Shown here: in pieces, positions 57,665-62,460 of the stretch
Position numbering within the stretch: the first letter of the stretch is position 1
Layout: the number at the start of each line of letters is the position of its first letter
Assembly (NCBI GenBank): GCA_951406725.2
Contig: OX597842.1
Location: 6,696,001-6,760,000 of the forward strand
DNA length: 64,000 nucleotides
Source of the DNA: Octopus vulgaris
Taxonomy: Eukaryota
Reading direction: 5' to 3'
Made by a program: the position numbers

Positions 57665-58471
57665 TCAGTAAGAAAATTAGACAATATTATGGTTTTTAAT
57701 AAGTCCACGTTACCTGGCCATAGATTTCAGTTACAAAAAACTCAATCATTTTTTTTATAAGACATTATTATATTTTTTTCATTTTCCTTTGTTATACTTA
57801 CAAATCTGGACGAGTTGTTATTACGGACAGTTTTGGCATTGCCATAAGCCTCTAATACCGGGTTAGCTTGGATGATCTGGTCCTCAAGAGAACCCTGTTT
57901 TGTAGACGGTTATTGTTGTGTGTGTAAGTTTTGTAGGGTTCATCAGTTACGAAGGAAGGTTTTTTGAAGGGTAAATTTTTTGTGAAGGTTTGGAAATCAC
58001 ACGGAAAAGAGAAGAATATGTTAGACAGGGAAAAATTATAATGGAAAATATTTAGTTAAAAAAAAGTGCTGTTCATTGATTTGATCAGCCATCAGAAATA
58101 TCTGTGGAGCAAAAAATTTAAGGAGATTGAAGGGTTTTTTTGTAAGGTGGGTAGAGGTTATGGAATGAGCATTGCTATTCCTTTTTCAGTGAAGCTCTTT
58201 GAAACATGTCACATGACTATTTAGGGAAATATGAATATGTATCATTGGTCGATTGAGAAATTTGAGAAGTAAAAAATAATATGTACAAGTGTCACAGTGG
58301 ACGTTATAGTTTGCTATTTTTCTTTCATATATCATTGCTACCCCCCACAAAAAAAGACCCCTTTATTTTTTAATCTTGTCTGTTAAAATTGAAAATGGTT
58401 GAAATTATGAAGTATCAAAGAGCTTCAGAGAATGGTTATATATGAATACATACATATATACATACATACAC

Positions 58472-58507
<36 letters not shown>

Positions 58508-58691
58508 GCACTTGCACACACACACTTATACACATATGTATGTATTATAAATACACAGACATCAAAAAAGATTATTATTACTATTAATATTATTAAACAA
58601 TATCACGTGTTATACAACATGACTCATAGTGACATAACATCTGTGGAGGTGACTGGTTAAAAGACAGACAAAGACAGAAAAGAAACAGAAG

Positions 58692-58741
<50 letters not shown>

Positions 58742-59144
58742 AAGGGAAAGTTTACGAAAATAAACAGAAGACGAAGGCAGGTGGAGTACAAACAAACAAA
58801 TGTATTAGACTAGTGCTCAGGAATAGAAAAAGTCTTTTATGTTTCGAGCCTACGCTCTTCGACAGAAAGATACACAGAAAAAAACAAGGAGAGAAAAAAA
58901 TGTGTGTAGGAGCTATGTGTTTAAGCTAGAAAAAGAAAGGAAAAGAGAATGGTTAGATTAATGTAGAAAATATGGGATGAAAAATTTTGGCTTTTTTTTT
59001 TCTCGCAAATGATTGGAAGACAGGAAGATAAATGGGGGGGAAATAATTTGGCAGGTTAAAACATTGAGGATTTGCTAGTATTTAATTGTTATTGTTATTA
59101 TTGTTATTATTATTATTGTTAATTTTTTGTTATTATTATTATTA

Positions 59145-59176
<32 letters not shown>

Positions 59177-60051
59177 GTTGTTATTATTATTATTGTTAAT
59201 ACTATTATTAATATTATTTTTGTTATTTAGTTATGTCTATCATTTGGTCCTCTGTAAATATATACATATATATTTATATATGTATATACACAAACACACA
59301 CACACGCATATATTTATTGAATATTTTTTATCCAATCTTTCTCATCTGCAAAGTTTTTGACTTCAAGTACTTCTTGATTGGTCAAATCTTGTTTGTCAAG
59401 AAGACAAATTTAGAGCAGATGGTTTACCATTTCTTCCATTATTTTTTGTTTTGAGGACACTAGACTACGATTTTAGTCAAGTACTTACGAATCTAGATGA
59501 GTTGTTATTACGGACAGTCTTGGCGTTTCCGTAGGCTTCCAATACTGGGTTAGCTTGGACAATTTGGTCTTCCAAGGATGTCTATATTTTGGTTATTAGT
59601 TTTCGGGGGTGAGTTATTTTAGTATTTAGATTTGTTGATATTGGTATTAAGAGTTTAGTGTTTCATAAAATATAGTTTTAAAAGATATTTTTATGGAGCA
59701 CCAGCAAGTAAATAAATTACGGAAGGGACGGGTGTAAGGAGAGAATGAAAGAAAAGAAAGGAGAAAATTTTGGTTAGACAATGTATAGAGATAACATTCT
59801 TTTATGTGATAACACTGTGAAATAGAGAGTGAGAGATTGAGAGGAAGATAGAGAGAGAAAGTAACAAGGTTGAATGGGAGAGGGGTAGGAGAGTGACACA
59901 CTATATATATAAATATATATACATAAATATATATATATATATATACAAGGTTATCTGTAAGAAATCATTATTATTATTATTATTATTATTATTGTTATTA
60001 AATTTATTATTTTTTGTTATTAAATTTATTATTTTTTGTTATTAAATTTAT

Positions 60052-60082
<31 letters not shown>

Positions 60083-60876
60083 GATATTTATGTTGGTGTT
60101 GTTATTATTTATTCTCAGTTGATGTATCTTAGATGCAAAAAATCATACCTTTTCATGTGTTCTTGTACCTTGTGTTCCACTAATTATATTTTGATATAGA
60201 TGAACATGGATATTGCTACTACAACTATCACACATACACAGAAACGTGTGAGTATATGTGTGTATTTTTATATATATGATGTATATATGTATTCTTGAAT
60301 ATTGTCATCTTTTTGTGACAAATTTGAGAGTGAAACCTTCACTGGATGTGTAGAGAAGATAAACTTATGTAATATAATTCATAAAGTAATAAAAATGTGT
60401 AAAATGGTAAATTTAACAAGAATATAAACTTGGAAATAACTAATAATTGTTCATGTTTCATTATCTTCATATTTTCCAAGTGATGCAAGAAAAAGAGTGT
60501 AAATTGACACTCTGCGTAATCTTAATATTATCTTTGTCTTTTCATGTTTTTAATGTCAGAGATGGTATCAGATTAGATACAAAAGTTGCAAGTGCACTAT
60601 AGCATCTATATCGAATATATATACAGGTTCATGCATGTATGCATACATACATGCATGTAGTGCTTTCATAAATATATTAGCAGTGTTATAAATTACAGGT
60701 ATTTTATATTTTGTCAGTTTTGAAGAGAGTTTTAAAAGCGAATATGCATGTGTGTGTGTGTTTTATATATATATATGTAGTTTTAAAAAAAGTGGTTACT
60801 TATTTTGGAGAATCATACAATTTGCTGTTTGTAGTAGTAATAGTAGTAGTTGTTATTATTGTTGTTGTTGTTATTG

Positions 60877-60920
<44 letters not shown>

Positions 60921-61058
60921 GCTGTTGTTGTTTGGTTGGTTAACACAGTTTGTGGGTAGATATATGTTATGAGGTTCAGATTTCTGAGTTGAGAAGATAT
61001 ATAGGGGTTATAAAGCGATAAAAATTATAACCGAGGTTACCATCCACGGTTATAGTTG

Positions 61059-61127
<69 letters not shown>

Positions 61128-61386
61128 TTATTATTATTATTAAATTCATTATTTTTTGTTATTATAATTGGTATTATTATTGTCATCATCACCCTTATAC
61201 CATTATTATTATAATTAATATCATTGTTATTATCATCATCCTTATTATTATTATTATTATTATTATTGTTATTATTATTATTATTGTTATTATTATTATT
61301 GGATGTGATATAGTTGTTGTTTTAGGAGGGAATTATTATTATAGGAAAAAGTCAGAGTTATTGTCTTGACAGCTGTATTTGCTGTG

Positions 61387-61432
<46 letters not shown>

Positions 61433-62460
61433 ATTAACATGTTGTTATTATTCTTTTTCTTATCATTATTATCATCATTATTGTCATCATCACCATCATT
61501 GTTATTTATTATTATTATTATTAATTATTATTATTATTATTATTATTATTTCTTCTTTTTTTCTTGCATATTAGTTTCAGGTTGCCAGTGTGGCAAATCC
61601 ACTTGGGTGGACCACAATCACTGTGTACTTACGAAGCGGGAAGAGTTGTTGTTACGGGTAGTTTTGGCATTACCATATGCCTCCAGTACGGGGTTACACT
61701 GGACAATCTGATCCTCAAGGGTACCCTTCTTCTCGTCTTTCTAGAATTTTGTGAATGGGAAGTTTCGGGGTTTTTCAGATAGATTGAGAGATGAGTTTTT
61801 AGAGGGGTTGAGTAATAATTTTGTATTGTTGGTTTTAATTTTAGTTTAGTTTAGTTTATTGTTATTATTATTATTATTTTTATCATTATTATTTTATTTT
61901 AAAGTTTTGTGTTGTTATTTTTGAAGGAAGTTTAAAGAGTACGTTTGATAAGTTTTGAGTTTTAGAGGAAATGAGTCGGAATTCATTTCATTTGTTGATG
62001 TTGAATAAAAGATTTTTAAATAAGATAATGAATTTTGTTTAGAATAATTTTTTGTGTTGGGGAATTTTTGAAGGAGACAGGGAGAAAGATAGTGAGAGAA
62101 AGGCAGGCAGAGAAAGAATGATAAAAGAAAGCAAAGAAAATAATGTGAAAATTTGTACAAGTGAATTTTTAAAGATTGTAATAAAGCAAAAAAATAAAAT
62201 GAATAATAATAACAATTGACACAAACATATAAAGATTACACAGTTAACTCTGAGTTTAAATAAATATACATTTCTAATCACAAGTATGGTACATAATTAT
62301 AGATACATATATTCATATATACATATACTCACATACATTTGTAGTCAAACATCACAGCACAAACAACTTGTGTCTTAATATATATTTATGCATGTATGAA
62401 GAGTCTTTGGCAAAACTCTGAAATCACTACCACTATTCATAATGTGTATGTATATACATA

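What the first reader, a model, noticed from the sequence alone, without database searches (positions are those of the whole stretch)
57802..61740. Three mutually exclusive loop-1/switch-1 exons whose exclusivity cannot be explained by frameshift or steric spacing
Seen: three intact paralogous exons (108, 93, 93 nt). Variant a adds KDEKK to loop 1 and has QCNP/KTT; b and c have QANP/KTV. All are phase 0-0, so double inclusion or skipping keeps the frame, and the separating introns are ~2.0 and ~1.6 kb. Established: loop 1 length tunes ADP release, and squid Mhc isoforms differing here have been reported at cDNA level, so the isoforms themselves are probably known. Inference: neither NMD nor donor-branch-point hindrance can enforce one-of-three choice, so a dedicated mechanism should exist (see the branch-point and hairpin findings).
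Basis: partly seen in the sequence, partly recalled or inferred. Interest (0 to 1): 0.7.

Follow-up and report, generated by a model that had tools for sequence, protein, structure and literature searches.

The report
Octopus myosin loop-1/switch-1 alternative exons
Three interchangeable copies of one small exon in an octopus muscle-myosin gene are real and ancient, belong to an already described set of alternative myosin exons, and carry unusual splice-acceptor regions that hint at how only one copy is chosen.

Summary
Three intact paralogous exons lie on the minus strand: a 61633-61740 (108 nt), b 59489-59581 (93 nt), c 57802-57894 (93 nt). All are phase 0-0 with AG acceptors and GTAAGTA donors, and the separating introns are 2051 and 1594 nt. 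All three are under strong purifying selection. The gene is an octopus Mhc, not squid.

This is the known "MXE cluster-3" of protostome muscle myosin genes (PMC3912159). The a-type and c-type exons are 31/31 identical to gastropod exons.

They are also the textbook argument for such clusters (PMC6071210).

New here: the three variable acceptors lack a proximal polypyrimidine tract. They also end three of the longest AG-free zones in the window (507, 217 and 174 nt), which carry distal pyrimidine tracts and branch-point-like motifs. This suggests that choice is controlled at distant-branch-point 3' splice sites.

Scans for a docking/selector RNA structure gave only background-level candidates. 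Actual exclusivity, and any use of exon b, could not be tested because no RNA data were available.

The parts
61633..61740 (-). Variable exon a (108 nt, phase 0-0). It encodes the end of loop 1 (KDEKK) through switch 1 (QCNP / KTT type).
   Evidence: Translation. It is 36/36 identical to residues 213-248 of squid S1, PDB 3i5f_A. AG acceptor and GTAAGTA donor.
59489..59581 (-). Variable exon b (93 nt, phase 0-0), QANP / KTV type. It differs from c at 2 of 31 residues.
   Evidence: No database protein carried it 31/31; the best match was 30/31.
57802..57894 (-). Variable exon c (93 nt, phase 0-0), QANP / KTV type.
   Evidence: It is 31/31 identical to, and used in, the O. bimaculoides protein P0129. 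It is also 31/31 in Babylonia areolata isoforms.
59582..61632 (-). Intron a-b (2051 nt). About a third of it is (AAU/AAC)n-like simple repeat in the transcript.
57895..59488 (-). Intron b-c (1594 nt).
50649..50711 (-). Next constitutive exon (GKFIRIHFGTQGKIAGADIET). The intron after exon c is 7090 nt. This acceptor has an ordinary pyrimidine tract.
61741..62247 (-). AG-free zone upstream of exon a (507 nt), the longest AG-to-AG gap on the transcript strand of the window. The proximal 30 nt are 20% U.
59582..59798 (-). AG-free zone upstream of exon b (217 nt). The proximal 30 nt are 13% U.
57895..58068 (-). AG-free zone upstream of exon c (174 nt). The proximal 30 nt are 17% U.
62079..62118 (-). 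Distal pyrimidine tract of exon a (-378 to -339, 90% Y).
59721..59780 (-). Branch-point-like UGUCUAAC (59773-59780) followed by the distal pyrimidine tract of exon b (59721-59767, 90% Y).
58003..58048 (-). Distal pyrimidine tract of exon c, with an embedded UGUCUAAC (58020-58027).
61763..61770 (-). CCCCGAAA motif 23-30 nt upstream of acceptor a. A second copy lies at 59601-59608, 20-27 nt upstream of acceptor b.
   Evidence: these are the only two minus-strand copies in 64 kb, with 0.12 matches expected on both strands.
57479..57504 (-). Candidate docking site about 300 nt downstream of exon c. It pairs with 60339-60359 (dG -24.0) and 58868-58888 (dG -16.7).
   Evidence: Found post hoc and not above background overall.
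50738..50767 (-). Candidate docking site 27-56 nt upstream of the constitutive acceptor. It pairs with 61489-61518 (dG -19.9) and 59075-59093 (dG -16.8).
   Evidence: It is U/G-rich pairing with A-rich simple sequence.
63516..63566 (-). (GUU/AUU)n tract in the upstream intron, complementary to the (AAU/AAC)n tracts of introns a-b and b-c (dG -38 to -40).
   Evidence: Low-complexity sequence.

Best explanation
SHOWN: This is the three-member version, in an octopus muscle myosin heavy chain gene, of the known mutually exclusive exon set 'cluster-3' (end of loop 1 to end of switch 1). All three copies are old and kept by purifying selection. Each can replace the others without changing the frame. 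Variant a lengthens loop 1 by five charged residues.

SHOWN: Frame, intron spacing and U12-type acceptors cannot make the choice exclusive.

SHOWN: The three variable exons share a 3' splice-site design that 14 constitutive exons of the same gene do not have. They have almost no uridines in the 30 nt before the AG. They have an AG-free zone of 174-507 nt. They have a pyrimidine tract, with a UGUCUAAC branch-point-like motif in b and c, placed 110-380 nt upstream. Their donors are perfect GTAAGTA.

INFERRED: The choice is made at these weak, distant-branch-point acceptors. They are off by default and need activation or de-repression, by proteins bound to the long AG-free spacer or distal tract, or by RNA pairing with the part of the upstream intron that is not in the window. 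Only the upstream constitutive donor can engage one activated acceptor. The strong donor of the chosen exon then goes to the ordinary strong acceptor of the next constitutive exon rather than to another unactivated variable acceptor.
For: Identity of the exon set:
- Exon a is 36/36 identical to squid S1 residues 213-248.
- Exon c is used in O. bimaculoides P0129.
- Cluster-3 is described for scallops, oyster, Aplysia, Biomphalaria, Lottia and Capitella, and by cDNA for squid (PMC3912159, passages).
- Among 141 fetched proteins (152 exon instances), 5 carry the a core 31/31 (squid, Babylonia, Patella, Littorina, one unnamed) and 5 carry c 31/31. Babylonia isoforms X1/X3 and X2 share the upstream 30 residues and differ only in this exon.

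Selection: pS/pN are 0.84/0.13 (a-b), 0.61/0.10 (a-c) and 0.80/0.06 (b-c), with Fisher p from 3e-6 to 2e-11.

Acceptor design:
- U content at -33..-4 is 0.20/0.13/0.17 for a/b/c, against 0.40-0.63 in 14 constitutive acceptors (Mann-Whitney p 0.0047). Y content is 0.57/0.47/0.47 against 0.67-0.90 (p 0.0045).
- AG-free zones are 507/217/174 nt, against 23-264 (median 76.5; 13 of 14 are 116 or less).
- All three are among the 29 of 2955 AG-to-AG gaps of 170 nt or more, and the 507-nt zone is the window maximum. AG counts are 0/0/0 against GA counts of 6/2/3. Mononucleotide shuffles give P(no AG) of 1e-4, 0.013 and 0.035.
- Distal pyrimidine tracts are 78-90% Y.
- Two of the three minus-strand TGTCTAAC copies in 64 kb sit at the 5' edge of, or within, the distal tracts of b and c.
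- The second alternative exon pair in the same gene (41.5/37.6 kb) has ordinary acceptors, so the design is specific to this cluster.
- Donors are TTC|GTAAGTA, TTC|GTAAGTA and TTT|GTAAGTA.
Against: - No transcript, lariat or protein-binding data exist for this locus in what I could reach, so exclusivity, use of exon b and the position of the branch points are all inferred.
- Near branch-point-like motifs exist too (CTAAT at -15 in b, CTTAC at -31 in c, TTCAC at -12 in a).
- The regions are G-poor (3-7% G), which explains part of the AG depletion.
- Local alignments of the three upstream zones are not better than shuffles (78/300, 196/300 and 31/300 shuffles reach the observed score), so the shared motifs are short and could be partly coincidental.
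- The 14 constitutive acceptors were placed by eye from tblastn matches of the head and neck only. One unclear match (48415) and all tail exons were left out.
- A weak-acceptor model alone does not explain why the upstream donor does not skip all three exons. An activating element near that donor is needed, and it lies outside the window.
Confidence: 0.45

Rival explanations
1. Arthropod-type competing RNA structures. One docking site, upstream or downstream of the cluster, pairs with a selector next to each variable exon. This loops out the others, as described for Dscam, 14-3-3zeta, MRP1 and Drosophila Mhc.
For: This is the main published mechanism for frame-preserving clusters of three or more exons, and docking sites lie downstream of the cluster in Drosophila Mhc (PMC6071210, passages). 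Of the four sites in 64 kb that pair with both intron a-b and intron b-c at score 30 or more, two lie in the 7.09-kb intron after exon c, at sensible places. One is 57484-57499, 300 nt after exon c (dG -24.0 and -16.7). The other is 50740-50758, just before the constitutive acceptor (dG -19.9 and -16.8). My hand calculation from these counts gives P = 0.07 for at least 2 of 4 falling there.
Against: Dual-pairing positions are no denser in the flanking introns than elsewhere. At score 24 or more they cover 2.5% of the downstream intron, 2.8% of the visible upstream intron and 2.8% of the rest of the window. Sites pairing with the zones next to all three exons are not enriched either: 13 of 52 clusters (upstream zones) and 5 of 17 (downstream zones) fall in the 20.8% of the window around the cluster. 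The candidates were picked post hoc, are rich in G-U pairs or simple sequence, and could not be checked for conservation. The complement of the shared CCCCGAAA motif is absent from the flanking introns.
Confidence: 0.3
2. There is no dedicated lock. Exon choice is kinetic competition (first come, first served), with low-level in-frame double inclusion or skipping tolerated, or removed at the protein level.
For: In squid the a-type isoform makes up 90-95% of the mRNA in both muscles tested (PMC4757648, passage), which fits the first exon transcribed winning. The 7-kb intron after exon c gives time before the strong constitutive acceptor appears. Automated gene models of other Spiralia include both exons in tandem without breaking the frame (Mytilus coruscus, three rotifer models, Seison, Elysia). 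This shows that nothing in the sequence forbids it.
Against: A duplicated or missing switch 1 would give a dead or dominant-negative motor in a filament-forming protein. The cDNA studies reported discrete isoforms, as far as the review passages show. The tandem models are most simply annotation artefacts. The shared unusual acceptor design points to regulation.
Confidence: 0.15
3. Spliceosome incompatibility. The upstream intron is U12-type and the variable donors are U2-type, so variable donors cannot use variable acceptors.
For: The variable acceptors lack a pyrimidine tract, as U12-type acceptors do. The upstream donor is outside the window and could not be inspected.
Against: No TCCTTRAY branch-site match lies in any of the three AG-free zones: none of the 10 window matches falls there. 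U12 branch sites must sit close to the 3' splice site (recalled, not from a call), whereas here the only pyrimidine-rich elements are 110-380 nt away.
Confidence: 0.02
4. Exon b is a relic that is never spliced in, so the cluster is in effect two-membered.
For: No fetched protein carries b 31/31 (best 30/31). The b and c peptides differ at only two residues, so b adds little protein diversity.
Against: Exon b has intact splice sites and no stop or indel. It has 16.8 synonymous against 4.2 non-synonymous differences from c (pS 0.80, pN 0.06, p 2e-11), which a neutral relic would not keep. Six isoforms were reported for O. bimaculoides (PMC4757648, passage). This would fit three variants here times two elsewhere, but that split is my inference.
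Confidence: 0.05

Closest known systems
MXE cluster-3 of protostome muscle myosin heavy chain genes (scallop striated/catch isoforms, Crassostrea Mhc2, Aplysia, Biomphalaria, Lottia Mhc5/6, Capitella; Kollmar & Hatje 2014, PMC3912159)
   Same: It covers the same protein segment (end of loop 1 to end of switch 1), has the same conserved intron positions and uses tandem paralogous exons. The main difference between variants lies in loop 1. The a and c exon types are 31/31 identical to gastropod exons.
   Different: There are three members here, whereas the passages I read describe two for scallops and two cluster-3 isoforms for squid. No cephalopod genome was in that study. Its figures and supplements, which list the number of variants per species, were not seen.
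Docking-site/selector clusters of arthropods (Dscam1 exons 4, 6 and 9, 14-3-3zeta, MRP1, Drosophila Mhc)
   Same: These are clusters of three or more frame-compatible alternative exons with long introns, for which frame and spacing cannot explain exclusivity (PMC6071210).
   Different: No docking/selector system above background was found in the window. Conservation could not be tested.
Vertebrate mutually exclusive exon pairs with distant branch points and long AG-exclusion zones (alpha-tropomyosin exons 2/3, alpha-actinin NM/SM; recalled from the literature, not from a call)
   Same: Each has a branch point and pyrimidine tract far upstream of the acceptor, a long AG-free spacer, and is a regulated muscle isoform exon.
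   Different: In alpha-tropomyosin the distant branch point sits too close to the previous donor, and that enforces exclusivity. Here the distances are at least 1420 nt, so the architecture can act only through regulation, not sterically.

Membership tests
Muscle Mhc MXE cluster-3 | [quoted passage not shown] | tested here: met
   Exon a aligns 36/36 to residues 213-248 of squid S1 3i5f_A. Exon b aligns to the same stretch of scallop and squid S1. The flanking exons of P0129 and P0130 map to the same strand.
Muscle Mhc MXE cluster-3 | Two or more tandem paralogous exons with the same phases and homologous boundaries | tested here: met
   There are three copies, all phase 0-0. The 93-nt cores align without gaps, and a carries a 15-nt 5' extension.
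Muscle Mhc MXE cluster-3 | Exactly one copy is present in each mature transcript | not testable with these tools
   There are no transcript data for this locus. Indirect evidence: P0129 (octopus) holds only c, squid S1 holds only a, and Babylonia isoforms hold one each.
Docking-site/selector competing RNA structures | One site complementary to a selector beside each variable exon, more than composition gives | tested here: inconclusive
   Candidates exist, but their densities equal background. The upstream intron is cut off by the window after 2260 nt.
Docking-site/selector competing RNA structures | Conservation or covariation of the pairings across species | not testable with these tools
   No cephalopod genomic DNA is in the open collections. 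Only translated ORF fragments around exon c of related animals were seen.
Steric-hindrance MXE pair (alpha-tropomyosin type) | Donor-to-branch-point distance too short for splicing between neighbouring variable exons | tested here: not met
   Even the farthest admissible branch points leave 1834 nt (a to b) and 1420 nt (b to c).
NMD-policed MXE | Double inclusion or skipping shifts the frame | tested here: not met
   The lengths are 108, 93 and 93 nt, all multiples of three, and all are phase 0-0.
U2/U12 spliceosome incompatibility | U12-type branch site and donor on one side of the variable exons | tested here: not met
   The variable donors are GTAAGTA. No TCCTTRAY lies in the three AG-free zones. 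The upstream constitutive donor is outside the window and was not tested.
Distant-branch-point exons (AG-exclusion-zone class) | AG-free zone much longer than usual, with a pyrimidine tract and branch-point consensus at its 5' part | tested here: met
   The zones are 507/217/174 nt against a median of 76.5 in 14 constitutive acceptors. The distal tracts are 78-90% Y. UGUCUAAC is present in b and c. The branch points themselves were not mapped.

The most novel reading that the evidence does not exclude
Simple-sequence repeats act as the docking/selector system. A single (GUU/AUU)n tract in the upstream intron (63516-63566), together with U-rich tracts just before the next constitutive exon (50774-50809, 50738-50767), competes for the (AAU/AAC)n tracts that follow each variable exon at 79, 255 and 22 nt from the donors of a, b and c. 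Each pairing loops out the exons that must be skipped. Exclusivity in this old cluster would then rest on oriented microsatellites rather than on unique conserved elements. In support, 16 of the 26 A-rich tracts of the transcript lie between 61.9 and 50.8 kb, all in one orientation, and the duplexes reach -38 to -40 kcal/mol.
Probability: 0.06. Interest if true: 0.8.

Novelty: new member of a known kind. Interest (0 to 1): 0.33.

Why it matters
Loop 1 and switch 1 set the rate of ADP release, and with it shortening speed. Molluscs tune one myosin gene by swapping this exon. How a cell includes exactly one of several frame-compatible exons is solved for a few arthropod genes only, and nothing is known for molluscs. 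The acceptor design described here is specific to this cluster within the gene. It gives a concrete place to look (branch-point mapping, binding proteins, minigenes) and a contrast with the arthropod RNA-pairing solution. The near-identity of the b and c peptides, despite saturated synonymous divergence, suggests that at least one copy is kept for how it is regulated rather than for what it encodes.

Tried and rejected
- Inverted-repeat search of 50600-64000: 2575 pairs, and the 25 longest are (TA)n-type microsatellites, so it was uninformative.
- Seeded RNAduplex search. The strongest non-repeat duplex touching an exon joins the donor of exon a (61610-61640) to 52128-52163 (dG -25.4). It rests on a 13-14 nt match, about what 13 kb gives by chance (my estimate), so I dropped it.
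I replaced it with an ungapped helix scan.
- Paralogous intron alignment. The MAFFT alignment of 300 nt upstream and local alignments against shuffles show no significant similarity of the flanks, apart from a (TA)n match downstream of b and c.
- Local hairpins after the donors. Exon a has two small stem-loops (z -1.9; 7 of 200 shuffles fold as well). Exons b and c have none (z -0.4 and +0.8). None sequesters the donor in the centroid structure.
- Complement of CCCCGAAA, with wobble allowed: the only transcript-strand match is at 35468-35475, more than 22 kb downstream.
- Rfam scan of the region: 0 families.
- Protein searches for cephalopod isoforms. The only named cephalopod hits were a partial O. 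bimaculoides model and the squid S1. No full-length cephalopod Mhc was listed, so use of exon b stayed unchecked.
- Shaffer & Kier 2012 and 2016 are not held. Searches found no paper on the mechanism of exon choice in a cephalopod or mollusc Mhc.
Searches were done exon by exon, or with database proteins as returned.
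Full report
What is there

On the minus strand the window holds three paralogous exons: a at 61633-61740 (108 nt), b at 59489-59581 (93 nt) and c at 57802-57894 (93 nt). Each follows an AG and is followed by GTAAGTA. The peptides are:
- a: [36 protein letters not shown]
- b: [31 protein letters not shown]
- c: [31 protein letters not shown]

A motif scan of the three minus-strand frames finds exactly these three copies. The separating introns are 2051 and 1594 nt. The next constitutive exon (GKFIRIHFGTQGKIAGADIET, 50649-50711) lies 7090 nt downstream of exon c. 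The P-loop exon lies beyond the window edge, more than 2260 nt upstream of exon a.

Which gene and which animal

Exon a is 36/36 identical to residues 213-248 of the squid S1 crystal structure chain 3i5f_A, 'myosin heavy chain isoform A'. The rest of the gene matches an octopus better. The exon cores are 97-100% identical to the partial Octopus bimaculoides protein P0129, against 75-98% for Doryteuthis pealeii S1 (P0130). P0129 reads ...[19 protein letters not shown]...SSRF|GKFIRIHFGTQ. It therefore uses exon c, 31/31, and this confirms phase 0 at both ends. The window is thus an octopod muscle Mhc gene that runs from about 61.7 kb down to about 3.5 kb.

Searches were made exon by exon or with database proteins as returned.

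All three are kept by selection

Nei-Gojobori counts over the 31 shared codons are:

| Pair | Synonymous differences | Non-synonymous differences | pS | pN |
|---|---|---|---|---|
| a-b | 17.8 | 9.2 | 0.84 | 0.13 |
| a-c | 13.0 | 7.0 | 0.61 | 0.10 |
| b-c | 16.8 | 4.2 | 0.80 | 0.06 |

Fisher p runs from 3e-6 to 2e-11. Synonymous sites are near saturation, yet the peptides differ at only 2-4 of 31 residues. The duplications are therefore old, there has been no recent gene conversion, and none of the copies is a neutral relic.

Among 141 fetched myosins of 400-2100 residues (152 exon instances; longer proteins were left out of the count), the a core is 31/31 in squid, Babylonia areolata isoform X2, Patella caerulea, Littorina saxatilis and one unnamed protein. 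Exon c is 31/31 in P0129, three Babylonia isoforms and one unnamed protein. The best match to b is 30/31. Babylonia isoforms X1/X3 and X2 share the preceding 30 residues and differ only in this exon, one copy each.

What is already known

[quoted passage not shown] They report it for scallops, Crassostrea, Aplysia, Biomphalaria, Lottia and Capitella. [quoted passage not shown] They also summarise the evidence that longer loop 1 raises ADP release.

Kier's review (PMC4757648; passages) states several points:
- Isoform A makes up 90-95% of the mRNA in both arm and tentacle transverse muscle.
- Four isoforms were found in Sepia and six in O. bimaculoides, all expressed in all tissues studied.

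The primary papers (Shaffer & Kier 2012, 2016) are not held. I could not see which exons make up the six octopus isoforms, and that is where use of exon b would be documented. The figures and supplements of PMC3912159, which give variant numbers per species, were not seen either.

- Frame: 108, 93 and 93 nt at phase 0-0, so any combination keeps the frame.
- Spacing: even if the branch points sit at the far end of the AG-free zones described below, the donor-to-branch distances are at least 1834 and 1420 nt.
- I added a third exclusion. The variable donors are U2-type, and none of the 10 TCCTTRAY matches in the window lies upstream of a variable acceptor. U2/U12 incompatibility is therefore not supported on the visible side.

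These exclusions are right. They are also the standard opening argument for such clusters (PMC6071210, passages). The frame-preserving property is general for this exon. Deposited gene models of Mytilus coruscus, three rotifers, Seison and Elysia carry two copies in tandem without a frame break, most simply as annotation artefacts.

What the sequence adds

I compared the three variable acceptors with 14 constitutive acceptors of the same gene. I placed those 14 by eye from tblastn matches to P0129, which covers the head and neck only. One unclear match (48415) and the whole tail were left out.

| Measure | a / b / c | 14 constitutive acceptors | Test |
|---|---|---|---|
| U content, positions -33 to -4 | 0.20 / 0.13 / 0.17 | 0.40-0.63 | Mann-Whitney p 0.0047 |
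| Y content, positions -33 to -4 | 0.57 / 0.47 / 0.47 | 0.67-0.90 | Mann-Whitney p 0.0045 |
| Distance to the nearest upstream AG (nt) | 507 / 217 / 174 | 23-264, median 76.5, 13 of 14 at 116 or less | see below |

- On the transcript strand only 29 of 2955 AG-to-AG gaps reach 170 nt. The 507-nt gap before exon a is the longest of all.
- Inside the three zones AG occurs 0, 0 and 0 times while GA occurs 6, 2 and 3 times. Mononucleotide shuffles give no AG in 0.01%, 1.3% and 3.5% of trials. The depletion therefore goes beyond the low G content.
- Each zone carries a pyrimidine tract far upstream: a at 62079-62118, b at 59721-59767 and c at 58003-58048.
- In b and c the tract is headed by, or contains, UGUCUAAC. 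These are two of only three copies of that 8-mer on this strand in 64 kb.
- CCCCGAAA lies 20-30 nt before acceptors a and b and nowhere else on this strand.
- The second pair of alternative exons in the gene (about 41534 and 37616) has ordinary acceptors.

Cluster-3 exons therefore combine perfect donors with acceptors that look weak near the AG and appear to use distant branch points. This is the design recalled from vertebrate alpha-tropomyosin and alpha-actinin exons (from memory, not from a call). Here it cannot act sterically.

Search for competing RNA structures

- The inverted-repeat tool returned microsatellites.
- A seeded duplex search and an ungapped helix scan of the whole window against introns a-b and b-c showed that positions able to pair with both are equally common everywhere (2.5-2.8% at score 24 or more).
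- At score 30 or more, four sites remain in 64 kb. Two lie in the intron after exon c, at 57484-57499 and 50740-50758. Their duplex energies are -24.0/-16.7 and -19.9/-16.8 kcal/mol. My hand calculation gives P = 0.07 for two of four falling there.
- Sites pairing with the zones beside all three exons are not enriched: 13 of 52 and 5 of 17 clusters fall in the 20.8% of the window around the cluster.
- The strongest long-range duplexes (-38 to -40 kcal/mol) join a (GUU/AUU)n tract at 63516-63566 to the (AAU/AAC)n tracts of the two introns. Sixteen of the 26 such A-rich tracts of the transcript lie between 61.9 and 50.8 kb. This layout would fit a looping-out scheme. It is simple sequence, though, and repeat orientation is regionally biased elsewhere in the gene too.
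- None of this could be tested for conservation, because no cephalopod DNA is in the open collections. The only related material was translated ORF fragments around exon c.

Verdict

The exons are real, ancient and functional-looking. The cluster is a known one, here with three members in an octopus. Exclusivity itself, and use of exon b, remain unverified.

My best reading, at moderate confidence, is that the choice is governed at weak, distant-branch-point acceptors that need activation, possibly from the unseen upstream intron. An arthropod-style docking/selector system is neither supported nor excluded.

Noticed in passing
window 41445-41534 and 37527-37616 (minus strand): A second pair of paralogous alternative exons lies in the same gene ([30 protein letters not shown] and [30 protein letters not shown]), just after loop 2. 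Both have ordinary pyrimidine-rich acceptors and short AG-free zones (46 and 79 nt).
   Followed up: partly
window 61726-61740 (minus strand), 5' end of exon a: The 15-nt extension that encodes KDEKK contains three further in-frame AGs spaced 3 nt apart (GAG AAG AAG | GGT). Use of the last one would give a 93-nt exon a that starts at the position homologous to b and c. Tandem acceptors could vary loop-1 length in small steps.
   Followed up: no
exons b (59489-59581) and c (57802-57894): The b and c peptides differ at only two residues (T/G at position 1, V/I at position 8), yet they differ at 21 of 93 nucleotides with pS 0.80. Two nearly synonymous exons have been kept apart for a long time, which suggests they differ in regulation or in pairing with upstream exon variants rather than in protein function.
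   Followed up: partly
proteins P0004, P0006, P0008-P0010, P0012: Deposited gene models of Elysia, Mytilus coruscus, rotifers and Seison contain two copies of this exon in tandem, in frame. These are probably annotation errors caused by the frame-preserving design.
   Followed up: partly
protein P0129 against the window, 43325-34873: The O. bimaculoides UniRef model jumps from ...FTPPEG to LIDAALV. It therefore omits the loop-2 exon and both members of the second alternative pair that the window encodes.
   Followed up: no
window 50.8-61.9 kb against 2-13 kb: Triplet microsatellites are strand-biased by region. There are sixteen (AAU/AAC)n-like tracts in the transcript around the exon cluster. 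The reverse-orientation (AUU)n tracts dominate the 3' part of the gene (7 tracts between 2 and 13 kb).
   Followed up: partly
window 62870-63180 (upstream intron): A strong local inverted repeat lies here, with arms about 310 nt apart and a duplex of -40 kcal/mol. It may be a small transposable element. A palindromic ATGGCCAT-containing element recurs at 62805-62865, 57705-57748, 56652-56696 and 55856-55886.
   Followed up: no
window 57145-57404: A (TAGA)65 microsatellite, 260 nt long with 96% matches, lies 400-650 nt downstream of exon c.
   Followed up: no
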